Origin: Candidatus Omnitrophota bacterium
GTDB lineage: Bacteria > Omnitrophota > Gorgyraeia > Aquiviventales > Aquiviventaceae
Assembly: GCA_016180575.1 (NCBI GenBank)
Contig: JACPAY010000007.1
Location: forward strand, 1,457 to 65,456
Direction of reading: 5' to 3'
Length of the DNA stretch: 64,000 bases
The position numbers and the translations under genes are program-made. Shown one piece after another: positions 3,861 through 54,100 of the stretch (positions are counted from its first letter, which is position 1; each line of letters begins with the position of its first letter). The notes beneath the pieces are model-generated. The model was not told where the DNA came from. It worked only from the letters and a program-made list of their open reading frames with translations, and did no database searches.

Positions 3861-3917
3861 ATGAGACAGGGGACAAGGGACAGGGGACATGTCTCCCGTC
3901 TCCTGTCTCATGTCTCC
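3861..3917 (+). repeat. R1 palindromic element, intergenic copy (rplN-rplX spacer)
   Basis: ATGAGACAGGGGACAAGGGACAGGGGAC / ATGTCTCCCGTCTCCTGTCTCATGTCTCC; arms built from 7-nt units GGGGACA and TGTCTCC. Confidence 0.85.
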
Positions 3918-5572: not shown

Positions 5573-6136
5573 ATGTCCCGCATCGGACGCGCCCCCATCC
5601 CGATGCCGACCGGCGTCAAGGTGACGCAGGAGGGTCCGCGGCTGCTCGTCGAGGGGCCGAAGGGGAAGCTGTCGCTCGCCATCCCCGCGGCGATCTCGGT
5701 CAGCGTGGACGGCCAGACGGTCCGGGTGCAGCGCGCCGGCGACGAGGCGCGCCAGCGGGCGCTGCACGGGCTGACCCGCGCCCTGGTCGCCAACATGGTC
5801 CACGGCGTCTCCGCCGGGTTTTCGAAAGAGCTGGAGATCGCGGGCGTCGGCTACCGGGCGCAGCTGCAGGGCAAACAGCTCTCGCTCCAGGTCGGGTTCT
5901 CGCATCCGGTCGTGGTCCCCATCCCCGAGGGGCTGACCGTGGAGGTGCCCAAGCCCACCTCGGTGGTGGTCAAGGGGTCCGACAAGCACCTCGTCGGGCA
6001 GTTCGCGGCCAACATCCGCCGCATCGCCCCGCCGGAGCCGTATAAGGGCAAGGGGATCAAGTACGCGGGAGAGATCATCCGCCGGAAAGCGGGGAAGGCC
6101 GCGACCGGCGCGGGCGCCAAGGCGCAAGCGGGATGA
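5573..6136 (+). CDS. rplF: 50S ribosomal protein L6
   Basis: Track ORF 5570..6136; ATG at 5573 gives [12 protein letters not shown]… typical L6. Confidence 0.95.
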
Positions 6137-6207
6137 TCCTTCGACTCGCTTCGCTCGCTCAGGATCATGGTGAGCAAGGCTCCGGCAGGAGCCGCGTCGA
6201 ACCATGA
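6132..6207 (+). repeat. R2 gene-junction element (rplF stop to rplR start)
   Basis: GATGATCCTTCGACTCGCTTCGCTCGCTCAGGATCATGGTGAGCAAG-GGCTCCGGCAGGAGCC-GCGTCGAACCATGA. Confidence 0.9.
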
Positions 6208-6569
6208 ACCCGGCCATCGATCGGGCGGTGGGGCGGCGGATCCGGCACCGACGACTCCGCAAGAAGGTCGCGGGGCTGCCGGACCGCCCCCGGCTGTGCG
6301 TCTTCCGCAGCCACAAGCACCTGTACGCCCAGCTCATCGATGATCTGGCCGGCAAGACGCTCCTGGGGTGGTCCACGAAGGACGAGCGGCTCAAGCGGCT
6401 GCGGAGCGGCGGCACGGTGGCGGCCGCCAAGGAGCTGGGCGCCCTCGTCGCCACCGACATCGCCCAGAAGGGCCTCAAACGAATCGTGTTCGATCGCGGA
6501 GGGTATCGCTACCACGGGCGGGTCCAGGCGCTCGCCGAGTCGCTCCGAGCGGGGGGCGTGGAGGTCTGA
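6204..6569 (+). CDS. rplR: 50S ribosomal protein L18
   Basis: Track ORF; [12 protein letters not shown]…[20 protein letters not shown]… typical L18; the start ATG lies inside repeat R2. Confidence 0.95.
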
Positions 6570-16177: not shown

Positions 16178-16187
16178 TAGAGCGTTT

Positions 16188-16286
16188 GGCCGCGGGTCCT
16201 GCCGCGCCGCCACCCCGCCGGCTGTCCTCGGCCTCGTCGGCCTGCGGGCAGGCGGCGGGGGCCCCGGCTCCGCGTCACCCGCGGCC
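16188..16286 (+). repeat. R3 99-nt GC-rich element (icd-lipA junction)
   Basis: Termini GGCCGCGGGT…ACCCGCGGCC; near-identical to the copies at 25220 and 56515 (reverse complement). Confidence 0.9.
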
Positions 16287-17111
16287 GTCTGCGAGAGCGC
16301 GCGCTGTCCCAACTTGCACGAGTGCTGGTCCAAGCGGCAGCTCACGTTCATGATCCTGGGCGAGCGCTGCACCCGCAGCTGCCGCTTCTGCGCGGTGGCG
16401 CACGGCCGGCCCGAGCCGGTCGAGGCGGATGAGCCCTGGCGCGTGGCGGAGGCGGTGCGGCGGCTCGGCCTCGTGCACGTCGTCATCACGTCGGTGGCGC
16501 GGGACGACCTCCGGGATGAGGGCGCCGGCCACTTCATCGAGGTCATCCGGACGGTTCGCCGCGAGAACCCAGGCGTGACGGTGGAGATTCTTATCCCGGA
16601 CTTCCACGGCCGGGAGGAGCTGGTGCAGGCGGTCGTCGGGGACGGGCGGCCCGACGTCTTCGCCCACAACGTGGAAACGGTCGAGCGGCTCTCCGGCCTC
16701 CTGCGGCCGCAGGCGGCCTACCGACGGTCGCTGCGCGTGCTCGGCCTCGCCGCCTCGCAGGGCGGGGAGTGCCTGATCAAGTCCGGCCTGATGCTGGGCC
16801 TGGGCGAAACCGCTGAGGAGATGGAACGGACCTTCGAAGACCTGCGCGCGGCCGGCGCCACCCACCTGACCATCGGGCAGTACCTCCGGCCGGACGCCGA
16901 CCACCTGCCGGTGCAGGAGTACGTCAGCCCGGAGCGGTTCGCGGAGTACGAGGCGCTCGCCTACCGCGCGGGGTTTGCGTGGGTGCGGTCCGGCCCATTC
17001 GTCCGCAGCTCCTACCACGCCGCCGAAGGCGTACACATGAGGAGTCCGGTTCCCGCTTTCCTATCGGAGAACTCTGGGAAACCGGGAACCGGACCCGGGA
17101 CTATCGCATGA
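16287..17111 (+). CDS. lipA: lipoyl synthase; initiation codon unresolved, C-terminus runs into repeat R4
   Basis: Track ORF starts at TTG 16314, but the in-frame conserved CESARCPNLHEC (CX4CX5C) begins at 16290. Radical-SAM CTRSCRFC motif present. Frame is open back to 16167 with no ATG/GTG/TTG. Confidence 0.8.
   Translation, partial: VCESARCPNLHECWSKRQLTFMILGERCTRSCRFCAVAHGRPEPVEADEPWRVAEAVRRLGLVHVVITSVARDDLRDEGAGHFIEVIRTVRRENPGVTVEILIPDFHGREELVQAVVGDGRPDVFAHNVETVERLSGLLRPQAAYRRSLRVLGLAASQGGECLIKSGLMLGLGETAEEMERTFEDLRAAGATHLTIGQYLRPDADHLPVQEYVSPERFAEYEALAYRAGFAWVRSGPFVRSSYHAAEGVHMRSPVPAFLSENSGKPGTGPGTIA
17037..17106 (+). repeat. R4 70-nt hairpin element (lipA 3' end / aminotransferase start)
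   Basis: ATGAGGAGTCCGGTTCCCGCTTTCCTATCGGAGAACTCTGGGAAACCGGGAACCGGACCCGGGACTATCG; 12-bp perfect stem GTCCGGTTCCCG/CGGGAACCGGAC. Confidence 0.9.
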
Positions 17112-20427: not shown

Positions 20428-20948
20428 GGGCGCTCGTCATCAGCCACCTGCGCAACCAGGGGAAGGGCTGCGCCCTGCGGACCGGCTTCATGCATGCGCT
20501 GCGGGAGCACTTCGAGGGCATCGTCACCCTGGACAGCGACGGGCAGCACGACCCGGCCGACATCCCGCAGCTCATCGCCGAAGGCGAGCGGCAGCACGCG
20601 AGCCTGGTGCTCGGCAACCGGATGGCGAACGGCGCGCGGATGCCCACGGCGAGGCGGTGGACCAACGCCGCCATGTCGCGCCTCGTCTCGACGCGCATCC
20701 GGCAGCCCATCCCGGATTCCCAGTGCGGCTTCCGGTTCATCCACAAGGAACTGTTGGACACCCTCCCCCTGCGGGCGAAGCGGTTCGAAGGCGAGACCGA
20801 GCTGGTCATCTGGGCGGCTGTGCGGCGCTGGAAGATCATCTCCGTGCCGGTGCGCAGCACCGACCAGCGCCATCCCAGCCACATCCGCCCCGTGCGGGAC
20901 GCGGTCCGGTTCCTGGGCGTGCTGATCCGGTCGCTGGCCTGGCGATGA
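20424..20948 (+). CDS. glycosyltransferase family 2, N-terminally truncated (possible remnant)
   Basis: ATG 20424 overlapping the previous stop. NQGKGCALRTGF and LDSDGQHDP motifs present, but the usual N-terminal ~80 aa are absent in every frame upstream. Confidence 0.55.
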   Translation: MRALVISHLRNQGKGCALRTGFMHALREHFEGIVTLDSDGQHDPADIPQLIAEGERQHASLVLGNRMANGARMPTARRWTNAAMSRLVSTRIRQPIPDSQCGFRFIHKELLDTLPLRAKRFEGETELVIWAAVRRWKIISVPVRSTDQRHPSHIRPVRDAVRFLGVLIRSLAWR

Positions 20949-20984
20949 TCCAATGGTGAGCGAGTGAAACGAGTCGAACCATGA
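20944..20984 (+). repeat. R2 gene-junction element, short variant (GT2 stop to pcm start)
   Basis: GATGATCC-AATGGTGAGCGAG-TGAAA-CGAGTCGAACCATGA. Confidence 0.7.
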
Positions 20985-25204: not shown

Positions 25205-25219
25205 TCCCTGGACCTGCGT

Positions 25220-25348
25220 GGCCGCGGGTCCTGCCGCGCCGCCACCCCGCCGGCTGTCCTCGGCCTGGTCGGCCTGCGGGCAGGCGGCGGGGGCCCCGGC
25301 TCCCCCGGCCCGCTCCGGCGTGCCGGGGCGGGCGCGTCACCCGCGGCC
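25220..25348 (+). repeat. R3 element, 129-nt variant with nested 30-nt insert
   Basis: Same termini; extra CCCCGGCCCGCTCCGGCGTGCCGGGGCGGG segment (itself a CCCCGGC/GCCGGGG hairpin). Confidence 0.9.
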
Positions 25349-29305: not shown

Positions 29306-30661
29306 ATGTTTTCGAAGATCCTGATCGCCAACCGGGGAGAGATCGCCGTCCGCGTCATCCGGGCCTGCAAGGAGATGGGCATCCGGACGGTCGCGGTCTA
29401 CTCCGAGGCGGACCGGAGCAGCCTCCACGTCCGCCTGGCCGACGAGGCGATCTGCATCGGGGGCCCGAAGCCTGAGCAGAGCTACCTCAATATCCCGGCG
29501 ATCATCAGCGCCGCCGAGATCACGGATGTCGAGGGGATCCACCCGGGCTACGGCTTCCTCTCCCAGAACGCCCACTTCGCGGAGATCTGCGAATCCTGCA
29601 ACATCACCTTCATCGGGCCGCCCCCGCAGGCGATGCAGCTCATGGGCGACAAGCTCGCGGCGAAGGACCTCATGCGGAAGGCCGGCATCCCGATCATCCC
29701 CGGGAGCATGGCCGCGGTCCGCAACAAGGAGGACGCCCTGAAGACCGCCCGGCGCATCCAGTACCCGGTCATCGTCAAGGCGGCGGCGGGCGGGGGCGGG
29801 CGGGGGATGCGGGTGTGCCACAATGACGTCCGGCTCATCAGCGCCCTCATGACCTGCCAGGCGGAGGCCGAGGCCAGCTTCGGCAACCGGGACGTCTTCG
29901 TCGAGAAGTACCTCCCGGAGCCCCGGCACATCGAGTTCCAGATCCTCGCGGACAGGTTCGGCCACACGATCCACCTGGGGGAGCGGGATTGCACGATCCA
30001 GCGGCGCCACCAGAAGCTCGTGGAGGAATCGCCCTCCCCGGCGGTCGACGCGAAGCTCCGGCGGAAGATGGGCGAGCTGTCGGTCCGGGCGGCCAAGGCG
30101 GCCGGGTACGTCTCCGCGGGGACGGTGGAGTTCCTCCTCAGCCGGGACGGGACGTTCTACTTCATCGAGATGAACACCCGCATCCAGGTCGAGCACCCGG
30201 TCACGGAGATGGTGACGGGGCTCGACCTCGTCAAGGAGCAGATCCGGATCGCGGCGGGCGAATCGCTCGGCTATAAACAGGACGACATCGCCCTGGAGGG
30301 GTGGGCGATCGAATGCCGGGTCAACGCGGAAGACCCCTCGAACGGGTTCTCGCCCTGTCCGGGCCGCATCACGGAGTACCAGCCCCCGGGCGGGCGCGGC
30401 ATCCGCGTGGACACGCATGTCTTCGCCGGCTACGACGTGCCCCCGTTCTACGACTCCCTGCTCGCCAAGGTCATCAGCGTCGGGACCTCGCGCGAGGACG
30501 CCATCCGGATCATGCAGCGCGCGCTGGACGAGTTTCTCATCGAGCCGATCCGGACCACGATCCCCCTCCACCGGCAGATCTTCAGCGACCCGACATTCTG
30601 GCGCGGGCAGCTGGCCACCAACTACCTCGATCGGCAACTGCAACTTGGGGAGGCTGAATGA
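29306..30661 (+). CDS. accC: acetyl-CoA carboxylase biotin carboxylase
   Basis: Track ORF; [21 protein letters not shown]… and ATP-grasp blocks. Confidence 0.97.
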
Positions 30662-30735
30662 TCCTTCGACTCGCTTCGCTCGCTCAGGATCATGGTGAGC
30701 AAGTCCCGCCATTGGCGGGACGCGTCGAACCATGA
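30657..30735 (+). repeat. R2 gene-junction element (accC stop to pfk start)
   Basis: AATGATCCTTCGACTCGCTTCGCTCGCTCAGGATCATGGTGAGCAA-GTCCCGCCATTGGCGGGAC-GCGTCGAACCATGA. Confidence 0.9.
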
Positions 30736-31772
30736 GCGCTTCTGCGCGGCACCTGGGCGTGCTGACCGGCGGCGGCGACTGCCCCGGGCTCAACCCGGTC
30801 ATCCGGGCCGTCACGCGGCGGGCGATCCAGGGGGGGTTCGCGGTCATCGGCATCCGCAACGGCTGGAAGGGCCTCATCGAGGGCGACACGATGGCCCTGG
30901 ACCTCCAATCAGTCTCCGGCATCCTGCCGAAGGGCGGGACGATCCTGGGGACCTCCCGGACAAACCCCTACAAGCGGCCGGAGCAGCTCGCCCAGCTCCA
31001 TGAGACGGTCAAGCGCCTCAAGCTGGACGCCCTCATCGCGATCGGAGGTGAGGACACGCTCGGCGTCGCCACGAAGCTCGTGAAAGACGGTCTCAGGATC
31101 GTGGGGGTGCCCAAGACCATCGACAACGACCTGGCGATGACCGACTACACCTTCGGGTTCGACACGGCGGTCAACATCGCCATGGAGGCGATCGACCGGC
31201 TCCATACGACCGCCGAGAGCCACCACCGCATCATGGTGGCCGAGGTGATGGGGCGCCACGCCGGCTGGATCGCGACGTGCGCCGGCATCGCCGGCGGAGC
31301 GGACATCATCCTCATCCCGGAGGAGCCGATCGATCTGGACGCCGTCTGCGCCCTCATCAAGAAGCGCCACGCCCGCGGCAAGGACTTCAGCATCGTCGTG
31401 GTCGCGGAAGGCGCTCGGTTCAAGCAGGACGCCAACGTCACCGTCGAAGAAAAGCTGGACGAGTTCGGCCATGTCCGCCTGGGCGGAATCGGGCATGTCC
31501 TCGGGAGCCACATCGAGCAGCGAACCGGCTACGAGACGCGGGTGACGGTCCTGGGCCACCTCCAGCGCGGCGGCAGCCCGACCGCCTTCGACCGCATCCT
31601 GGGCACCCGGTTCGGCATCAAGGCGGTGGAGCTCGTCCTGGCGGGGCAGTTCGGCTCCATGGTGAGCCTCCAGGGCAACAAGATCGTCGCCGTCCCCATC
31701 GAGCAGGCCACCGGGTCGCTCAAGACGGTTGACCCGGAGCTCTACGAGATCGCAAAGATCTTCTTCGGATGA
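30732..31772 (+). CDS. 6-phosphofructokinase, residue pattern suggests pyrophosphate dependence
   Basis: Track ORF; GGGDCPGLN, IGGEDT (Asp where E. coli PfkA has Gly104) and PKTIDND (Lys where PfkA has Gly124); start ATG lies inside repeat R2. Confidence 0.85.
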   Translation: MSASARHLGVLTGGGDCPGLNPVIRAVTRRAIQGGFAVIGIRNGWKGLIEGDTMALDLQSVSGILPKGGTILGTSRTNPYKRPEQLAQLHETVKRLKLDALIAIGGEDTLGVATKLVKDGLRIVGVPKTIDNDLAMTDYTFGFDTAVNIAMEAIDRLHTTAESHHRIMVAEVMGRHAGWIATCAGIAGGADIILIPEEPIDLDAVCALIKKRHARGKDFSIVVVAEGARFKQDANVTVEEKLDEFGHVRLGGIGHVLGSHIEQRTGYETRVTVLGHLQRGGSPTAFDRILGTRFGIKAVELVLAGQFGSMVSLQGNKIVAVPIEQATGSLKTVDPELYEIAKIFFG

Positions 31773-32341
31773 GCGCCGAGGACACGATCCGGGCGAGCCT
31801 CCGGGAGACCGCCCGGCTCCTGGCGGAGTTCCCGGATGCCCAGACCGCCCGGGTCGCCAAGGCCGCCTCACTCATGGCGGAAGCGGTCCGCTCCGGCCGG
31901 AAGGTCATCTGGTTCGGCAACGGCGGCTCGGCGACGCAGGGCCAGCACATGGCGGCGGAGTTCGTGGGGCGGTTCCGGAAGGAGCGCCGCGCCCTGCCAT
32001 CGATCTCGCTGACCGAGAACATGGCCAGCGTCACCGCGATCGGCAACGACTACGCCTTCGAGCGGATCTTCGCGCGGCAGCTCGAAGGCCTGGGGCAGGC
32101 CGGGGACGCGGCGGTGGGGCTCTCAACCTCAGGGAACTCGCCCAACGTCCTCGAGGGGCTCCGCCAGGCCAAGGCGCTGGGCCTCTCCGCCATCGGCCTC
32201 ACCGGCGGCGACGGTGGGCGCATGGAAGCGCTGTGCGACGTCTGCATCTGCGTGCCCTCGACGGTCACGGCGCACGTCCAGGAAGCCCACCTCGCCATCG
32301 GGCACATCCTCTGCGGGCTGGTGGAAGATGCCATCAAATGA
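31769..32341 (+). CDS. gmhA: phosphoheptose isomerase (SIS domain)
   Basis: Track ORF; [17 protein letters not shown]…, [11 protein letters not shown]…, [12 protein letters not shown] blocks. Confidence 0.9.
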
Positions 32342-32407
32342 GGAGTCCGGTTCCCGCTTTCCCATCGGAGAACTCTGGGAAACCGGGAACCGGACCCGGG
32401 ACTATCG
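32338..32407 (+). repeat. R4 70-nt hairpin element (gmhA stop / hldC start)
   Basis: One substitution relative to the 17037 copy by eye; the gmhA TGA is nt 2-4 of the element. Confidence 0.9.
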
Positions 32408-32411
32408 GAGA

Positions 32412-32900
32412 CTGAAGGGACTTTCGCGCAAGATCAAATCAGCGGCCGCGCTCGCGCGCCTCGTGCGCGCGGCGCAGGCCCGCGGGCGGACCGTCGTCTT
32501 CACGAACGGCTGCTTCGACCTCCTCCACGCCGGCCATGTCACGCTCCTTGAGCGGGCCAGGCGGTGCGGTGACCTCCTCATCATCGGCCTCAACAGCGAC
32601 CGCTCGGTCCGGGCGCTCAAGGGGCCGCACCGCCCCCTCGTGGGCCAGCGGGACCGCGCGCGGTGCCTCGCGGCGCTGGAGAGCGTGGACTACGTCACCG
32701 TCTTCCACGACCGCACGCCCCGCCGGCTGATCGAGCGGCTGCGCCCGGACGTGCTGATCAAGGGCGCCGATTGGGGGCGCGCCGCGATCGTCGGCCGCGA
32801 CGCGGTCGAATCGCGCGGCGGCCGGGTCATCCGGCTGCCGCTCCTCAAGGGCTACTCCACCTCGCAGCTCATCGCCCGCATCCGACGGCATGGCAGCTAG
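32412..32900 (+). CDS. hldC: D-glycero-beta-D-manno-heptose-1-phosphate adenylyltransferase (RfaE domain II type); start codon unresolved
   Basis: Frame of track ORF 32214..32900; [19 protein letters not shown] cytidylyltransferase motif. No ATG after gmhA; candidate starts are CTG 32412 or GTG 32463. Confidence 0.75.
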
Positions 32901-42647: not shown

Positions 42648-42664
42648 TGGTCGTGTCTCAATTT

Positions 42665-42746
42665 GGCGGGTCCTGCCGCGCCGCCACCCCGTCGGCTGTC
42701 CTCGGCCTTCGCCTGCGGGCAGGCGACGGGGTCCCCGGCTCTGCGT
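42665..42746 (+). repeat. R3 element, degenerate copy lacking intact termini
   Basis: GGCGGGTCCTGCCGCGCCGCCACCCCGTCGGCTGTCCTCGGCCTTCGCCTGCGGGCAGGCGACGGGGTCCCCGGCTCTGCGT. Confidence 0.8.
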
Positions 42747-45212: not shown

Positions 45213-45249
45213 GGAGCAGGAAACAGGGAACCGGACCCGGGACTATTGG
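45209..45249 (+). repeat. R4 element, truncated copy (hom stop / thrC start)
   Basis: ATGAGGAGCAGGAAACAGGGAACCGGACCCGGGACTATTGG; left stem arm missing. Confidence 0.75.
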
Positions 45250-46312
45250 AAACCGGCAATGGCCCGGGGTGATTGAACGCTATCGCGCCTACCTTCCGGT
45301 CTCCCCCGCGACCCCCATCATCACGCTGCTGGAGGGGAACACCCCGCTCATCCACAGCCGCGCGCTGAGCCGCCGGTTGGGGCGGGGGATGTCGGTGTAC
45401 CTCAAGTACGAGGGGATGAACCCCACCGGCTCGTTCAAGGACCGCGGGATGACCGTGGCGATCTCGAAGGCGGTCGAGGCGAAGTCGGTCGCGGTCCTGT
45501 GCGCCTCCACCGGCAACACCTCCGCCTCGGCCAGCGCCTATGCGGCGCGGGCGGGGCTGCGCTCCATCGTCCTCATCCCGAGCGGCGCCGTGGCGCTGGG
45601 CAAGCTCTCGCAGGCGCTCATCCACGGGGCGCGCGTGGTGGTCGTGGACGCGAACTTCGACGCGTGCCTGGCGCTCGTGAAGTCGCTGGCCCAGGGGCAC
45701 CCCGTCACGCTGGTCAACTCCATCAACCCGCACCGCATCGAGGGCCAGAAGACGTGCGCCTTCGAGATCTGCGACGCGCTCGGCCGGGCGCCGGACTACC
45801 ACGTGACGCCCGTGGGCAACGCGGGCAACATCACGGCGCAGTGGAAGGGCTACACGGAGTACCGGCGGCGCGGGCGCATCACGCAGCGGCCCGCCATGCT
45901 GGGCTTTCAGGCCGAGGGCGCCGCCCCCCTGGTGCAGGGCCGCGTCATTAAGCACCCGCGCACGATCGCCACCGCCATCCGGATCGGCAACCCGGCCAGC
46001 TGGCAGGGGGCGCTCGCCGCGGCCGAGGAATCGGGCGGCGCCATCCAGGCGGTGAGCGACCGGCAGATCCTGGAGGCCTACCGCCTCCTCGCGTCAGAGG
46101 ACGGGGTGTTCGTGGAGCCGGCGTCGGCCGCCTCGGTCGCCGGCCTGCTGCGCCTGGCGCAGGCGGGATATTTCAAGAAGCGGGCGACCATCGTCTGCAT
46201 CCTCACCGGACACGGGCTCAAGGACCCCGAGCGCGCCATCAAGAGCATCCGCCTGGCGCGTCCCCTCCCGCCGTCGCTCTCCGCCATCACCAAAGCCGCC
46301 GGCCTGAAGTAA
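45209..46312 (+). CDS. thrC: threonine synthase (start either ATG 45209 inside repeat R4 or GTG 45269)
   Basis: Track ORF; GVIERYRAYLPV…TLLEGNTPL…NPTGSFKDRGM PLP-lysine motif. Confidence 0.92.
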   Translation: MRSRKQGTGPGTIGNRQWPGVIERYRAYLPVSPATPIITLLEGNTPLIHSRALSRRLGRGMSVYLKYEGMNPTGSFKDRGMTVAISKAVEAKSVAVLCASTGNTSASASAYAARAGLRSIVLIPSGAVALGKLSQALIHGARVVVVDANFDACLALVKSLAQGHPVTLVNSINPHRIEGQKTCAFEICDALGRAPDYHVTPVGNAGNITAQWKGYTEYRRRGRITQRPAMLGFQAEGAAPLVQGRVIKHPRTIATAIRIGNPASWQGALAAAEESGGAIQAVSDRQILEAYRLLASEDGVFVEPASAASVAGLLRLAQAGYFKKRATIVCILTGHGLKDPERAIKSIRLARPLPPSLSAITKAAGLK

Positions 46313-50399: not shown

Positions 50400-53219
50400 A
50401 TGTCTGCGCTCCCCCCCCAGTACAACCCCAAGGACGTCGAGGAAGCCCGCTACGCGTGGTGGGAATCCCAGGGCTTCTTCCGCGCCGACCCGGACCCCAA
50501 GCGGAAGCCCTACACCATCGTGATCCCGCCGCCCAACGTGACGGGCATCCTCCACATGGGCCACGCGCTCAACAACACCATCCAGGACATCCTCATCCGG
50601 TTTGCGCGCATGCAGGGGTTCAACGCCCTCTGGGTCCCGGGCACCGACCATGCCGGGATCGCCACCCAAAACGTCGTGGAGAAGGCGCTGGCCAAGGAAG
50701 GGAAGCGCCGGCAGGACCTGGGGCGCGAGGCGTTCCTCAAGCGCGTCTGGGAGTGGAAGGAGCAGTACGGCAACACGATCCTGTACCAGCTCAAGCGCCT
50801 CGGCGCCTCCTGCGACTGGCGGCGGACCCGGTTCACGATGGACGAGGGGCTCTCCGAAGCGGTCCTCGAGGTGTTCGTCCGGCTCTATGAGAAGGGGCTG
50901 ATCTACCGCGGGAACTACATCATCAACTGGTGCCCCCGGTGCCAGACCGCGCTCGCCGACGAGGAGGCGCCGCGCACCGAGACCCAGGGCAAGCTCTACC
51001 ACATCAAATACCCCATTTTGAGACAGGGGACAGGGGACAGGGGACAGGGGAAGACCACACCTGTCTCCCGTCCCATGTCTCCTGTCTCAGCTTTCATCGA
51101 GGTGGCCACGACCCGGCCGGAGACGATGCTGGGCGACACCGCCGTCGCCGTCCACCCGAAGGACAAGCGGTACAAAACGCTCATCGGAAAGCACGCCATC
51201 CTCCCGCTCGTGAACCGGAAGCTCGTCATCATCGCGGACGAGGCGGTGGACCGGGAGTTCGGCACCGGGGCGGTCAAGGTGACGCCGGCCCACGACCCGG
51301 TGGACTTCCAGCTCGGGAAGAAGCACAAGCTCGAGTTCATCAACGTGATGACCGACGACGCGAAGATGACCAATGTGCCGAAGCCCTACGAGGGGCTCGA
51401 CCGGCTCGACTGCCGCAGCAAGCTCATCGTGGACCTCGAGCAGCAGGGGTTCCTCGGCCGGATCGACGAGCACGTGCACAACGTCGGCCACTGCTACCGC
51501 TGCCACACGGCGGTGGAGCCGCGCCTCTCCCCGCAGTGGTTCGTGAAGATGAAGCCGCTCGCCGAGCCGGCGATCAAGGCGGTCAAGCAAGGGACGATTA
51601 AGTTCGTCCCGGCGCGGTGGACCAAGGTGTACCTCAACTGGATGGAGAACATCCAGGACTGGTGCATCAGCCGCCAGATCTGGTGGGGCCACCGGCTGCC
51701 CGTCTACTACTGCGAAAGCTGCCGGCGGAGACAGGAGACAGGAGACAGGAGACAAGCAAAGGCCCAACGTGTCTCCCGTCCCATGTCCCATGTCTCAGAA
51801 CCCGGTGTCATTGTTTCAAAGACGCGGCCGGAGCGGTGCCCAACCTGCGGCGGGACCGAGCTGGCGCAGGACGAGGACGTGCTGGACACGTGGTTCTCCT
51901 CCTGGCTGTGGCCGTTCTCGACGCTCGGCTGGCCGAAGAAGACTAAAGACCTCGCCTACTTCTATCCGACCGACACGCTCGTCACCGCGCAGGAGATCAT
52001 CTTCTTCTGGGTCGCCCGGATGGTCATGGCCGGCTACTTCTGCATGAAGCGGCCGCCGTTCACCACGGTCTCCATCCACGGCACGGTGCGCGACATCACC
52101 GGCAAGAAGATGTCGAAATCGCTCGGCAACATCATCGACCCGCTCGAGATGATCGGCCGCTACGGCACCGACGCGCTGCGCTACACGCTGGTGACCGCCA
52201 CCGCCATCGGCCAGGACATCTTCCTCTCGGAGGAGCGGTTCGCCGCCGGCCGCAACTTCGCCAACAAGCTCTGGAACGCCACCCGCTTCGTGCTCGCGCA
52301 GGACGGAATCGAAAAGTACCGGGTACTTCCCAAAGCGGGAAAAGTACCCGGTACTTTTTCAGTAGCGGACCGGTGGATCCTCTCGCGGCTCCAGCAGACC
52401 ACCGCCCGCGTCACGAAGTCGCTCGAGGCGTCCCTGTTCAATGACGCGGCCAGCGCGCTCTACGGCTTCCTCTGGCACGACTTCTGCGACTGGTACGTGG
52501 AGATCGCCAAGCACGTGCCGGCCGAGCAGCAGCCCGCCACCCGCGCGATCCTGCGGCACGTCCTTGAGCAGGCGCTGCGGCTGCTCCACCCGGTCATGCC
52601 CTTCGTGACCGAGGAGCTGTGGCAGCATCTGAGACAGGGAACCACCAAGCCACCTGTCTCTCGTCTCATGTCTCATGTCCCAATTTCGATTATGAAGGCG
52701 GAGTGGCCGAAGGTGGAGAAGCGTCTCATCGACCGCGAGGCGGAGCGGCTCTTCGAGCGGCTCCAGGCGGTCATCACCGCCATCCGGACCACGCGGTCTG
52801 AGCTCAACGTCCCGGTGGAGAGCCGGCCGCCGGTGCATCTGGCATCGCCGCAGGCCGAGGTCCGGATGTTTTTCGAGATCCACCGCCCGCTCCTCCAGCA
52901 GCTGGCCGCGCTGGGCGACATCAGCGTCGAGGCCAAGCGGCAGGCGGTGCGGCACGCGGCGGCCATGGTGGTGGACGGGGTCGAAGTCCTGATGCCGCTG
53001 GAAGGGCTCATCGACCCGGCGAAGGAGCGCGCGCGGCTCCAGCAGCGGCTCGACGACCTCACGCGGCAGAGGGCCCAGGCGGAGGCCAGGCTCAAGGACC
53101 GGCAGTTCACGACCAAAGCGCCCGCCGAGGTCGTGGAGCAGACCAAGACCCGGCGCGCCGAGCTCCAGGACACCGCCAAGAAGGTGTCCGAGCACCTGGC
53201 CGTGCTCCAGGGGATGTGA
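50400..53219 (+). CDS. valS: valine--tRNA ligase carrying four in-frame repeat insertions
   Basis: Track ORF, 939 aa; HIGH-type PPNVTGILHMGH, KMSKS, TTRPETMLGD, C-terminal coiled coil. Confidence 0.96.
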   Translation: MSALPPQYNPKDVEEARYAWWESQGFFRADPDPKRKPYTIVIPPPNVTGILHMGHALNNTIQDILIRFARMQGFNALWVPGTDHAGIATQNVVEKALAKEGKRRQDLGREAFLKRVWEWKEQYGNTILYQLKRLGASCDWRRTRFTMDEGLSEAVLEVFVRLYEKGLIYRGNYIINWCPRCQTALADEEAPRTETQGKLYHIKYPILRQGTGDRGQGKTTPVSRPMSPVSAFIEVATTRPETMLGDTAVAVHPKDKRYKTLIGKHAILPLVNRKLVIIADEAVDREFGTGAVKVTPAHDPVDFQLGKKHKLEFINVMTDDAKMTNVPKPYEGLDRLDCRSKLIVDLEQQGFLGRIDEHVHNVGHCYRCHTAVEPRLSPQWFVKMKPLAEPAIKAVKQGTIKFVPARWTKVYLNWMENIQDWCISRQIWWGHRLPVYYCESCRRRQETGDRRQAKAQRVSRPMSHVSEPGVIVSKTRPERCPTCGGTELAQDEDVLDTWFSSWLWPFSTLGWPKKTKDLAYFYPTDTLVTAQEIIFFWVARMVMAGYFCMKRPPFTTVSIHGTVRDITGKKMSKSLGNIIDPLEMIGRYGTDALRYTLVTATAIGQDIFLSEERFAAGRNFANKLWNATRFVLAQDGIEKYRVLPKAGKVPGTFSVADRWILSRLQQTTARVTKSLEASLFNDAASALYGFLWHDFCDWYVEIAKHVPAEQQPATRAILRHVLEQALRLLHPVMPFVTEELWQHLRQGTTKPPVSRLMSHVPISIMKAEWPKVEKRLIDREAERLFERLQAVITAIRTTRSELNVPVESRPPVHLASPQAEVRMFFEIHRPLLQQLAALGDISVEAKRQAVRHAAAMVVDGVEVLMPLEGLIDPAKERARLQQRLDDLTRQRAQAEARLKDRQFTTKAPAEVVEQTKTRRAELQDTAKKVSEHLAVLQGM
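51019..51089 (+). repeat. R1 palindromic element, in frame in valS (copy a)
   Basis: TGAGACAGGGGACAGGGGACAGGGGACAGGGGA-AGACCACAC-CTGTCTCCCGTCCCATGTCTCCTGTCTCA; translated LRQGTGDRGQGKTTPVSRPMSPVS. Confidence 0.9.
51727..51796 (+). repeat. R1 palindromic element, in frame in valS (copy b)
   Basis: GAGACAGGAGACAGGAGACAGGAGACA-AGCAAAGGCCCAAC-GTGTCTCCCGTCCCATGTCCCATGTCTCA; translated RQETGDRRQAKAQRVSRPMSHVS. Confidence 0.9.
52311..52360 (+). repeat. R6 palindrome in frame in valS
   Basis: GAAAAGTACCGGGTACTT-13 nt-AAGTACCCGGTACTTTTTC, about an 18-bp stem; translated EKYRVLPKAGKVPGTF. Confidence 0.75.
52630..52680 (+). repeat. R1 palindromic element, short copy in frame in valS (copy c)
   Basis: TGAGACAGGGA-ACCACCAAGCCAC-CTGTCTCTCGTCTCATGTCTCATGTCC; translated LRQGTTKPPVSRLMSHVP. 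Confidence 0.8.
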
Positions 53220-54100
53220 TGTCCGGCCTCAGCCGGGAGGCGGTCCTATCCCTCATCCGTCTCGCGCTGCGCGAGGATCAGGCCGGCCGCGACATCACCT
53301 CAACGGCCGTGCTGCCGGCAACCGCCCGCGCCCGGGCGCGGCTTATCGCGCGGGCGCCGGGCATCCTGGCCGGCGGCCAGGCGGCCGGGTGGGTGTTCCG
53401 CGCGGTGGACCGTCGGGTGCGATACCGCGTCAGACTGCATGACGGGACGGCGACGCGGCCAGGACAGGTGGTCGCGAACCTGGACGGGCCGGCTCGCTCC
53501 ATCTTCGCGGCGGAGCGGACCGCGCTGAACCTGCTGGGCCATCTCTCCGGCATCGCGACGCTCACCCACGCTTATGCCCGACGGGTCCGCGGCACCCGGG
53601 CCAAGGTCTACGACACCCGCAAGACGCTGCCGGGGCTGCGGGCCCTTGAAAAGCACGCGGTCCGCGCAGGCGGGGGGCGCAGCCACCGCGGCAGCCTGGC
53701 CGAGGCGGTCCTCATCAAGACGAACCATCTGAAGGCGCTGGGACAGGGGACAGGGGACAGGGGACAGGGGATCCAAAACGCCATTAAGCGGGCGAAACGC
53801 CGGTTCCCTGGCAAGTTCGTTGAAGTCGAAGTGAGAACGGTGCGCCAATTTCAATCGGCACTGACTGCGCAACCTGACGCCATTTTACTCGACAACATGT
53901 CTCTCCATGACGTCCGACGCGCCGTTCACCTGTCCCATGTCTCGCGTCCCTTGTCTCAAAAGCGGCCTCTGTTGGAGGTTTCAGGAGGCATTACCCTCAA
54001 AAATGTCCGGGCCTACGCCCGCGCGGGCGCGGACCGCATCTCCATCGGCCGGCTGACCCACTCGGCGCCTGCGCTGGACGTCTCGCTGGAAATCGTATGA
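53216..54100 (+). CDS. nadC: nicotinate-nucleotide diphosphorylase (carboxylating) carrying both R1 repeat arms in frame
   Basis: Track ORF; AERTALNLLGHLSGIAT, YDTRKTLPGLR, LIKTNH, EVEV, LLDNM, EVSGGI blocks. Confidence 0.92.
   Translation: MMSGLSREAVLSLIRLALREDQAGRDITSTAVLPATARARARLIARAPGILAGGQAAGWVFRAVDRRVRYRVRLHDGTATRPGQVVANLDGPARSIFAAERTALNLLGHLSGIATLTHAYARRVRGTRAKVYDTRKTLPGLRALEKHAVRAGGGRSHRGSLAEAVLIKTNHLKALGQGTGDRGQGIQNAIKRAKRRFPGKFVEVEVRTVRQFQSALTAQPDAILLDNMSLHDVRRAVHLSHVSRPLSQKRPLLEVSGGITLKNVRAYARAGADRISIGRLTHSAPALDVSLEIV
53741..53770 (+). repeat. R1 left arm alone, in frame in nadC
   Basis: GGACAGGGGACAGGGGACAGGGGACAGGGG; translated GQGTGDRGQG. Confidence 0.85.
53927..53958 (+). 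repeat. R1 right arm alone, in frame in nadC
   Basis: CACCTGTCCCATGTCTCGCGTCCCTTGTCTCA; translated HLSHVSRPLSQ. Confidence 0.8.

What the first reader, a model, noticed from the sequence alone, without database searches (positions are those of the whole stretch)
30657..30735. Compensatory variation in the internal hairpin of R2 argues for a conserved RNA or DNA structure
**Seen directly**
- The copies at 6132 and 30657 are identical over the first ~47 nt and the last ~13 nt.
- They carry completely different internal hairpins at the same position: GGCTCC-GGCA-GGAGCC (6178-6193) versus GTCCCGCC-ATT-GGCGGGAC (30703-30721).
- The short copy at 20944 replaces this segment with a few nucleotides.

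**Inference**
- A variable stem-loop in a conserved frame suggests selection on shape rather than sequence.
- Candidate roles include a protein or RNase recognition site, or a modular variable region.
Basis: partly seen in the sequence, partly recalled or inferred. Interest (0 to 1): 0.55.

Follow-up and report, generated by a model that had tools for sequence, protein, structure and literature searches.

The report
Mobile hairpin doublet between coupled genes
R2 is a small mobile pair of DNA hairpins that has inserted exactly into ATGA stop/start overlaps between genes; its inner hairpin keeps its shape while its sequence varies, and most such copies can be read through as a tiny open frame.

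Summary
The two long copies (6133-6207, 30658-30735) share 46 + 15 identical bases and carry different perfect hairpins at the same position.

The inference of conserved shape also holds. In 23 related copies from about 21 contigs, all 8 pairs of this hairpin change on both sides and every cell stays paired.

R2 is a doublet of two inverted hairpin modules. Each module is a variable stem closing a conserved asymmetric cap, GAGC-N-GTCGA. The variable hairpin sits at the apex of the cap.

The module family is common in metagenomes with 31-74% GC. It lacks the GTAG/CGTC tags of described REP superfamilies and matches no Rfam family.

R2 is a recent insertion. Four relatives have a plain ATGA overlap at accC|pfk, and one has it at GT2|pcm. 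The window has ATGA-R2-ATGA at both junctions.

Of 19 ATGA-flanked doublets, all are followed by a long ORF that starts at the 3' ATG. Fourteen have a length divisible by 3 (p = 4e-4) and 13 are open mini-ORFs. This resembles mycobacterial MIRUs, which sit at start codons and are proposed to spare expression of the gene there.

Verdict: a new variant of a known kind (REP/REPIN-like, MIRU-like). The mobilising enzyme is unknown.

The parts
6133..6207 (+). R2 copy 1, whole doublet. It lies between the rplF stop (TGA 6134-6136) and the rplR start (ATG 6204-6206). It is also a 24-codon open mini-ORF running from ATGA to ATGA.
6133..6168 (-). Module A of copy 1: ATGATCC-TTCGAC-TCGCTTCGCTC-GCTCA-GGATCAT. 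On the minus strand it reads stem-GAGC-GA-GCGAAGC-GA-GTCGA-stem.
   Evidence: stem A covaries: UA/CG at 6-53, CG/AU at 7-52, UA/CG at 9-50
6165..6207 (+). Module B of copy 1: TCATGGT-GAGC-AA-[hairpin]-GC-GTCGA-ACCATGA. The downstream start codon lies in the 3' arm of the stem.
6178..6193 (+). Variable apical hairpin of copy 1: GGCTCC-GGCA-GGAGCC.
30658..30735 (+). R2 copy 2 (the finding), whole doublet. It lies between the stop of the biotin carboxylase gene (TGA 30659-30661) and the phosphofructokinase start (ATG 30732-30734). It is a 25-codon open mini-ORF.
30658..30693 (-). Module A of copy 2, identical to that of copy 1.
30690..30735 (+). Module B of copy 2: TCATGGT-GAGC-AA-[hairpin]-GC-GTCGA-ACCATGA.
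30703..30721 (+). Variable apical hairpin of copy 2: GTCCCGCC-ATT-GGCGGGAC. The same stem with a GAA loop occurs in the related MAG locus L008.
   Evidence: z = -5.7 against shuffles
20945..20984 (+). Short R2 copy: ATGATCC-A, then module B with the mini-hairpin GA-GTGAAAC-GA (20962-20972). It lies between the stop of a GT2 glycosyltransferase gene and the pcm start. It is out of frame; the mini-ORF stops after 4 codons.
   Evidence: empty site in L145

Best explanation
**What it is**
- R2 is a non-autonomous mobile element of about 75 nt.
- It consists of two hairpin modules in inverted orientation that share a central TCAT. This is the layout of a REPIN or BIME.
- Each module is a stem of variable sequence closing a conserved asymmetric cap, GAGC-N-GTCGA.
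- The N position at the apex holds 2-3 nt in most family members. In R2 it holds a hairpin that is free in sequence and length but must pair. This is why the two window copies have identical frames and unrelated hairpins.

**Shown**
- The element inserts at ATGA stop/start overlaps and ends up flanked by ATGA on both sides.
- The upstream gene therefore keeps a TGA and the downstream gene keeps an ATG.

**Inferred**
- The frame is held constant because the mobilising machinery reads it, probably on single-stranded or extruded DNA, since both orientations carry the same cap.
- Element lineages whose length keeps an open mini-ORF from the 5' ATG to the 3' TGA persist in operons.
- In those lineages a ribosome that terminates on the upstream gene can restart, translate through and unwind the hairpins, and restart again on the downstream gene. 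The start codon of that gene is otherwise buried in stem B.
For: **Structure**
- The two-hairpin structure, with its nested hairpins, is 92.1% paired and has 16 pairs changed on both sides; 0 of 500 shuffles reach this.
- Stem A covaries: GATCC/GGATC, GACCC/GGGTC, GATAC/GTATC, TTGCCC/GGGCAA.
- The alternative pairing of module A with module B shows no covariation. It breaks where A varies.

**Family**
- There are 255 modules in 0.98 Mb. The commonest apical inserts are GGA, GAA, CT and TT.
- Modules often lie as close inverted pairs, 20-70 nt apart.

**Mobility and target**
- accC|pfk is a bare ATGA overlap in L144 (PFK 93% identical), L145, L149 and L150. GT2|pcm is bare in L145. The window has ATGA-R2-ATGA at both.
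- ruvC|ruvA is filled in L106 and L003 and empty (ATGA) in L020.
- Logan contigs break inside R2.

**Coupling**
- All 19 ATGA-flanked doublets are followed by an ORF of at least 77 codons that starts at the 3' ATG. Random ATGs in the same loci give 26% at a threshold of 80 codons.
- In 15 of 19 the TGA of the 5' ATGA closes an upstream frame open for at least 78 codons.
- 14 of 19 have a length divisible by 3 (p = 3.8e-4). Counting distinct architectures gives 12 of 16 (p = 8e-4). 13 are fully open.
- The two window inserts are 20 and 23 nt, so they differ by exactly one codon.
Against: - No transposase or other mobilising gene was found. Clustering the neighbouring ORFs of 140 loci gave only housekeeping families.
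- DNA-level versus RNA-level constraint is not resolved. G:T against A:C mismatches in stems are 16 against 12, which is not decisive.
- Whether ATGA is a 4-bp target duplication or an intrinsic end joined at an ATGA core cannot be told from the sequence.
- 5 of 19 doublets are out of frame, and so is the window's short copy. The mini-ORF is therefore not obligatory.
- Translation of the mini-ORF is untested.
- Relatives with low GC (L019, L071, L099) carry near-identical modules that have no ATGA ends and no adjacent gene start.
- The doublets come from a pattern-based search that fixed much of module B. That part of the alignment cannot vary.
Confidence: 0.68

Rival explanations
1. R2 is a dedicated cis-regulatory RNA. 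It could be a translational operator, a thermometer, or an RNase or protein site that controls the downstream gene by sequestering its start codon. The variable hairpin would be a peripheral stem.
For: - R2 is transcribed within operons, and the AUG lies in the stem of module B.
- Predicted folding energy is -29 to -33 kcal/mol, with z = -1.7 and -3.1.
- The hairpin shows strong covariation.
- No intrinsic terminator is predicted, so transcription should read through.
Against: - The same element sits in front of unrelated genes: L18, PFK, PCMT, RuvA, YebC, MoaA-like and others.
- It is absent from the orthologous junction in four close relatives.
- Module A carries the same cap in antisense orientation. 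An RNA motif would not be equivalent to its own complement.
- There is no G:U excess on one strand.
- No Rfam family matches, even at permissive thresholds.
Confidence: 0.12
2. R2 encodes a functional small protein of 24-25 residues ([15 protein letters not shown]...RVEP).
For: - 13 of 19 doublets are open ATG-to-TGA frames, with -4 overlaps on both sides.
Against: - The peptide is not conserved. The middle of the element is read in two different registers in different copies (...AQDHGE... against ...LRIMVSG...).
- The hairpin segment gives unrelated residues.
- Conservation is at the nucleotide and pairing level.
- Five copies, plus the window's short copy, are out of frame.
Confidence: 0.03
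3. The conserved cap GAGC-N-GTCGA is the recognition and cleavage-joining site of an unidentified single-strand DNA enzyme, for example one of HUH type. What sits at N (hairpins, or whole nested modules) would then be DNA joined in at that site, not a stem kept by selection for shape.
For: - All length variation is confined to one point of the cap.
- Complete modules are found nested at exactly that point: L031, L033/L049, L081, L108, L126, L132.
- Stems vary freely while the cap is constant across 31-74% GC. Rolling-circle origins are built the same way (my own knowledge).
Against: - No enzyme was found.
- Plain hairpins with stable GNA, GNRA or UUCG loops and covarying closing pairs fit selection or stability equally well.
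- No junction or footprint evidence is available.
Confidence: 0.15

Closest known systems
REP / BIME / REPIN elements (repetitive extragenic palindromes, mobilised by RAYT tyrosine transposases)
   Same: - They are short GC-rich palindromic units, dispersed, intergenic and within operons.
- They often occur as close inverted pairs.
- Stems covary.
- Some REP families have loops of variable length whose inner part is self-complementary. Examples are GTAG-3 and GTAG-14, where loops reach 27 bp (Di Nocera et al. 2013, PMC3733652).
- The ends of some REPs supply stop codons to flanking ORFs.
   Different: - There is no GTAG or CGTC tag at the foot of the stem: 0 of 166 modules.
- The conserved sequence is the apical cap, not the foot.
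- The same 20-nt core occurs across very different GC contents and in MAGs assigned to different phyla, whereas most REP families are lineage-specific.
- No RAYT association has been shown.
MIRUs (mycobacterial interspersed repetitive units; Supply et al. 1997, as summarised in PMC12548453)
   Same: - They are intergenic repeats inside operons and appear mobile.
- They sit at start codons so that an internal ORF is coupled to the gene with -4 spacing. This is thought to minimise the effect on expression.
   Different: - The sequences are unrelated.
- From my own knowledge, MIRUs are direct tandem units rather than inverted hairpin doublets.
- R2 carries structured hairpins and a variable apical stem.
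- The host lineage is different.
MITEs such as Correia/NEMIS or ERIC
   Same: - They are small, non-autonomous, have inverted ends, are co-transcribed with flanking genes, and fold in RNA.
   Different: - R2 is much shorter (40-90 nt).
- No parent IS with matching ends is known.
- The target is ATGA rather than TA.
- R2 is built from two independent hairpins rather than one long one. The pairing of A with B is not supported.
Integron attC sites
   Same: - Both have a conserved outer frame with a variable, self-complementary centre.
- Both act between ORFs.
   Different: - R2 has no R''/R' core sites (RYYYAAC/GTTRRRY) at its ends.
- There is no cassette array or integrase context.
- The flanking genes are housekeeping genes that are syntenic in relatives.

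Membership tests
REP (generic definition) | Short imperfect palindrome (about 20-40 nt), multi-copy, extragenic | tested here: met
   - Modules are 28-45 nt.
- 255 modules occur in 0.98 Mb of fetched loci.
- There are 3 loci in the window, all between genes.
GTAG- or CGTC-tagged REP superfamilies (Di Nocera 2013) | Unpaired GTAG or CGTC tetranucleotide at one end of the stem | tested here: not met
   - GTAG, CTAC, CGTC or GACG directly abuts the stem in at most 1 of 166 distinct modules. There is no enriched flanking 4-mer.
REPIN | Two REPs in inverted orientation separated by a short spacer, acting as one unit | tested here: met
   - R2 is A(-) plus B(+) sharing TCAT.
- Inverted pairs 20-70 nt apart recur in many loci.
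REPIN | Cognate single-copy RAYT (Y1 HUH transposase) in the genome, usually flanked by the REPs | not testable with these tools
   - Only 64 kb of the source genome and 8-21 kb pieces of others are held.
- Clustering of neighbouring ORFs found no shared transposase-like family.
MIRU-like coupling element | Internal ORF whose start and stop overlap the stop and start of the flanking genes | tested here: met
   - Both long window copies meet this.
- 13 of 19 ATGA doublets are open from ATGA to ATGA. In 15 of 19 the TGA of the 5' ATGA closes an upstream frame open for at least 78 codons. All 19 are followed by a long ORF that starts at the 3' ATG.
MIRU | Sequence homology to mycobacterial MIRU units and tandem direct-repeat organisation | not tested
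   - No MIRU sequence was compared.
- The organisation differs: an inverted doublet. Tandem copies were seen only in L020.
MITE | Terminal inverted repeats plus a target-site duplication | tested here: inconclusive
   - Empty against filled sites show ATGA on both sides of the insert.
- ATGA also pairs with the central TCAT, so it may belong to the element.
- The inner ends TTCGAC...GTCGAA are inverted, but their pairing is not supported by covariation.
Described structured RNA families (Rfam 15) | Covariance-model match | tested here: not met
   - Only tRNAs pass the gathering threshold in the window.
- Nothing relevant appears at E<=10 on the element or at E<=0.5 on ten related loci.
Intrinsic terminator | GC-rich hairpin followed by a T run | tested here: not met
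   - No terminator-like sites at 5900-6500 or 30400-31000.
Integron attC | R''/L''...L'/R' core sites and a cassette or integrase context | tested here: not met
   - The ends read TTCGAC/GTCGAA, not RYYYAAC/GTTRRRY (read from the sequence).
- The flanking genes are housekeeping genes, syntenic in relatives.

The most novel reading that the evidence does not exclude
The GAGC-N-GTCGA hairpin modules would be a separate, very widespread superfamily of REP-like elements with its own, still unidentified, single-strand DNA enzyme. That enzyme would recognise and cut the conserved apical cap. The variable hairpins and nested modules at N would record joining events at the cut site. The ATGA-ended doublets such as R2 would be a sub-lineage that uses its central TCAT to pair with ATGA stop/start overlaps as target. 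It would also have evolved an in-frame relay ORF so that it can colonise translationally coupled operons.
Probability: 0.18. Interest if true: 0.75.

Novelty: new variant of a known kind. Interest (0 to 1): 0.48.

Why it matters
**For annotation**
- R2 explains an odd 70-nt spacer inside a ribosomal-protein operon and two other operons of an Omnitrophota-labelled MAG.
- It explains why assemblies break at these points.
- The 24-25-codon ORFs should not be annotated as genes.

**More generally**
- This is a clean natural example, with empty-site controls, of selfish DNA adapted to a compact, translationally coupled genome.
- The element supplies a stop and a start codon.
- Most copies keep an open relay frame, even though they contain hairpins of up to -33 kcal/mol.
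- The same ATGA junction (accC|pfk) carries three unrelated inserts in three lineages. All three are open ATGA-to-ATGA frames.
- This suggests that termination-reinitiation is a strong constraint on what can live between genes in this clade.

**Open lead**
- The module family has a conserved apical cap, lacks the GTAG/CGTC tags, and occurs across many environments. It may point to an undescribed mobilising enzyme.

Tried and rejected
- **Rfam:** searched at gathering and at permissive thresholds on the window, the element and ten related loci. Nothing but tRNAs and generic long-hairpin noise.
- **Hammerhead, k-turn, group II domain V, T-loop and attC resemblances:** considered by eye. Each fails on a core position, or on the existence of minimal modules with only 2-3 nt at the apex. 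None was kept.
- **Viral contigs:** the doublet junction gave 0 hits. PLSDB plasmids gave no meaningful hit.
- **Literature string searches:** core sequences and their spurious translations (FDKLR, LSLSKG, VSLSNH...) gave nothing relevant. No paper links Omnitrophota to such repeats.
- **Search for an associated transposase:** ORFs from 140 loci were clustered. Only ABC ATPase, histidine kinase, response regulator, protease and the yebC-ruvCAB operon recur.
- **Strand asymmetry of wobble mismatches:** 16 against 12, uninformative.
- **Start-codon association of single minimal hairpins:** 32% against 26% for the control. The association is specific to the ATGA doublets.
- **Extending the source contig:** two look-ups failed or returned only short Logan contigs.
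- **rplF|rplR junction of L138:** too distant to serve as an empty site; it has an ordinary 16-nt spacer.
- **Survey of relay mini-ORFs:** it includes real small genes and at least one mis-called start, so it is only suggestive.

Full report
**1. Observation**

Reading the three places named in the finding confirms the description.
- Copy 1 spans 6133-6207 and copy 2 spans 30658-30735.
- They are identical over 46 nt (6133-6178 = 30658-30703) and again over the last 15 nt.
- Between these stretches lie two unrelated perfect hairpins: GGCTCC-GGCA-GGAGCC (6178-6193) and GTCCCGCC-ATT-GGCGGGAC (30703-30721).
- A 36-nt piece of the shared frame is expected 0 times by chance and occurs twice.
- The third copy (20945-20984) is a truncated form. 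It keeps ATGATCC, has lost the rest of the first module, and carries GA-GTGAAAC-GA at the hairpin position.
- No other copy is in the window. Two short matches, at 2998 and 16349, lie in coding sequence and are chance matches.

**2. Anatomy**

R2 is two hairpin modules in inverted orientation sharing a central TCAT.
- Module A is ATGATCC-TTCGAC-[insert]-GCTCA-GGATCAT.
- Module B is TCATGGT-GAGC-[insert]-GTCGA-ACCATGA.
- Read on the opposite strand, module A has the same build as module B: a stem, then GAGC, an insert, GTCGA, and the other arm of the stem.
- The variable hairpin of the finding is the insert of module B. It is flanked by AA...GC.
- The insert of module A is TCGCTTCGCTC. On the minus strand this reads GA-GCGAAGC-GA, a 2-bp stem with a GAA triloop.

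**3. Relatives elsewhere**

- A scan of one genome per species used GGATCATGGTGAGC-N(6-36)-GTCGAACC. It found 12 true relatives in MAGs deposited as Omnitrophota or Planctomycetia, with GC 43-70%. Each had a different insert.
- In the 0.98 Mb fetched there are 255 modules with a closing stem of at least 5 pairs.
- The apical insert is most often GGA, GAA, CT or TT. 80 modules have inserts of 7 nt or more.
- The stem next to the cap is either ...GGT/ACC... or ...CCT/AGG... in nearly equal numbers, although only the first type was searched for.
- Modules often lie as close inverted pairs.
- Whole modules are sometimes nested inside the cap of another module: L031, L033/L049, L081, L108, L126, L132.
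- Nothing in Rfam matches.

**4. Is the structure conserved?**

On the MAFFT alignment A1 of 23 doublets I specified stem A, the hairpin inside A, the inner part of stem B, and the hairpin inside B.
- 92.1% of cells pair, against 19-47% when partners are slid by 1-3 columns.
- 16 pairs have changes on both sides, and no shuffle out of 500 reaches any of the five measures.
- The helix that corresponds to the finding has 8 pairs. All 8 change on both sides, and 100% of cells are paired.
- Stem A shows UA/CG, CG/AU and AU/GC exchanges.
- The rival fold, in which module A pairs with module B, shows no covariation. It breaks where A varies, while the pair 9-50 of the two-hairpin fold switches from UA to CG.
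- A separate count was not tied to MAFFT and used 30 distinct inserts in the frames GA..GA, AA..GC or GA..GC. It gives 91% paired from the frame inwards, against 27-38% slid and about 40% shuffled (0 of 1000).
- In that count the closing pair is G-C 20 times, C-G 5, A-T 3, T-A 1 and G-T 1.
- Long inserts fold far better than their shuffles, with z between -3 and -7.
- Loops are often GAA, GAAA, GCAA or UUCG. The short inserts GCGAAGC and GCGCAGC are of the d(GCGNAGC) type, known to me as unusually stable DNA mini-hairpins.

Its refutation criterion is not met.

**5. It is a recent insertion at ATGA**

- Pfam confirms the neighbours: L6|R2|L18, GT2|short R2|PCMT, and biotin carboxylase|R2|PFK.
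- The PFK is 100% identical to one from a MAG named Candidatus Omnitrophica bacterium. Many relatives exist.
- In four syntenic relatives, accC and pfk overlap by the four bases ATGA with nothing between. These are L144 (PFK 93% identical), L145 (90%), L149 and L150.
- In L145 the GT2 and pcm genes overlap in the same way.
- The window has ...GGCTGA-ATGA-[74 nt]-ATGA-GCGC... at the first junction, and the equivalent arrangement at the second.
- The ruvC|ruvA junction is filled by a doublet in L106 and by a remnant in L003. It is a bare ATGA in L020.
- 107 kb from relatives L144-L150 contain no R2 module, while the window has three loci in 64 kb.
- Logan contigs that carry L18 start inside R2, about 30 nt before the first unique base. 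This is what a repeat does to a de Bruijn assembly.
- R2 is therefore mobile, or at least copied. The identity of its frames fits recent spread.
- The frame is also nearly the same in distant hosts: L071, at 41% GC, is 83-85% identical over about 75 nt. The frame is therefore also constrained.
- Different hairpins on identical frames are best read as different source lineages in which only pairing is constrained.

**6. The ATGA ends and the mini-ORF**

The ATGA at each end is complementary to the central TCAT, so both belong to the stems. I examined the 19 doublets that have ATGA at both ends, from 18 contigs. All figures below are unless another call is given.
- All 19 are followed by an ORF of at least 77 codons that starts at the 3' ATG. 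Random ATGs in the same loci reach 80 codons in 26% of cases.
- In 15 of 19 the TGA of the 5' ATGA closes an upstream frame that is open for at least 78 codons.
- 14 of 19 have a length divisible by three (binomial p = 3.8e-4). Counting distinct architectures gives 12 of 16 (p = 8e-4).
- 13 are open from ATG to TGA.
- Lengths of the in-frame copies are 51, 63, 66, 75, 78, 81 and 90. The two inserts therefore co-vary in length.
- The two window hairpin segments are 20 and 23 nt.
- The peptide is not conserved. The middle of the element is read in two registers in different copies. This is therefore a translatable spacer, not a gene.
- Single minimal hairpins show no association with start codons.
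- The arrangement parallels MIRUs. A recent review describes MIRUs as mobile units that insert at start codons so that an internal ORF is coupled at -4 spacing, which probably spares expression.
- Two relatives carry unrelated inserts of 93 and 132 nt at the same accC|pfk junction. Another repeat family of the window lies at 17037-17111. All three are also open ATGA-to-ATGA frames.
- In about 170 kb of this clade, 31 of 52 genes that end in ATGA overlap the next long ORF directly.

The inference is that termination-reinitiation is important here, and that inserts which keep a relay frame are tolerated. This step is inferred, not shown.

**7. DNA or RNA?**

- The same cap in both orientations within one transcript argues for a constraint on DNA, or for two insertions of one module.
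- G:T against A:C mismatches in stems are 16 against 12, which gives no strand signal.
- There is no terminator or promoter signal.
- I conclude that the frame and the pairing are most likely read during mobilisation, and that the ATGA ends and the frame length are shaped by translation. The point is open.

**8. Comparison with what is known**

- R2 meets the generic definition of a REP and the doublet layout of a REPIN.
- Variable self-complementary loop interiors are already described for some REP families (PMC3733652).
- R2 fails the defining tag of the two described superfamilies: 0 of 166 modules have GTAG at the stem foot, and at most 1 has CGTC.
- Its conserved part is apical rather than basal.
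- No RAYT or other enzyme could be linked to it.
- It works like a MIRU with respect to coupling, but it is built differently.
- I therefore file it as a new variant of a known kind.

**9. Verdict**

The finding is real and its interpretation is supported. The structure belongs to a small mobile hairpin doublet that targets ATGA overlaps. The variable hairpin is the free apical position of a conserved cap. Interest is moderate. The open lead is the unidentified machinery that recognises the GAGC-N-GTCGA cap.

Noticed in passing
window 17034-17111, 32335-32412, 45219-45253; also L008 5657-5729: A second repeat family of about 73 nt: ATGAGGAGTCCGGTTCCCG...GGGACTATCG. It starts on an ATGA. The copy at 17037-17111 is a 75-nt open frame ending in ATGA at the next gene's start, and it is in frame with the upstream lipA-like ORF. 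It is shared at 84% identity with the related MAG locus L008.
   Followed up: partly
window 16187-16271, 25219-25303, 42661-42745: A third repeat family of 85 nt, very GC-rich and internally palindromic (GGGTCCTGCCGCGCCGCC...GGCGGCGGGGGCCCC). Two copies are 99% identical.
   Followed up: no
window 3862-3916, 51019-51090, 51727-51798, 53739-53957: Arrays of the heptamer GGGACAG / GAGACAG, followed by their inverted complement (CTGTCTC...). They form long imperfect palindromes.
   Followed up: no
L146 8043-8127 and L148 9877-10000: The accC|pfk ATGA junction is filled in two other lineages by unrelated sequences of 93 and 132 nt (counted ATGA to ATGA). Both are open in-frame mini-ORFs. This junction looks like a hotspot.
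   Followed up: partly
L003 4351-4383 (minus strand): At ruvC|ruvA only module B remains. The ruvC reading frame runs through it (...LDHGERVKGVEP) to the element's TGA, which overlaps a GTG start of ruvA. The element has been absorbed into a coding sequence.
   Followed up: partly
L020 1564-1690 and 2990-3020: Two complete doublets lie in tandem upstream of yebC. Separately, the heptamer GTGCGGA is repeated four times at the 3' end of ruvC, just before the ATGA overlap with ruvA.
   Followed up: no
L031, L033/L049, L081, L108, L126, L132 (positions): Complete hairpin modules are nested inside the GAGC...GTCGA cap of another module. They sit at the same point where R2 carries its variable hairpin.
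   Followed up: partly
L138 2765-2830 and 6546-6630: In a distant relative the same module family sits inside the ribosomal-protein gene cluster, between rpmJ and rpsM. The two hairpins there are separate, not a doublet, and the downstream gene has its own Shine-Dalgarno sequence and a TTG start.
   Followed up: partly
L141-L143 (Logan contigs of SRR12113384, SRR12113419, SRR12113401): Three independent assemblies of the same organism all begin at window position 6151, inside R2. The repeat breaks short-read assemblies.
   Followed up: yes
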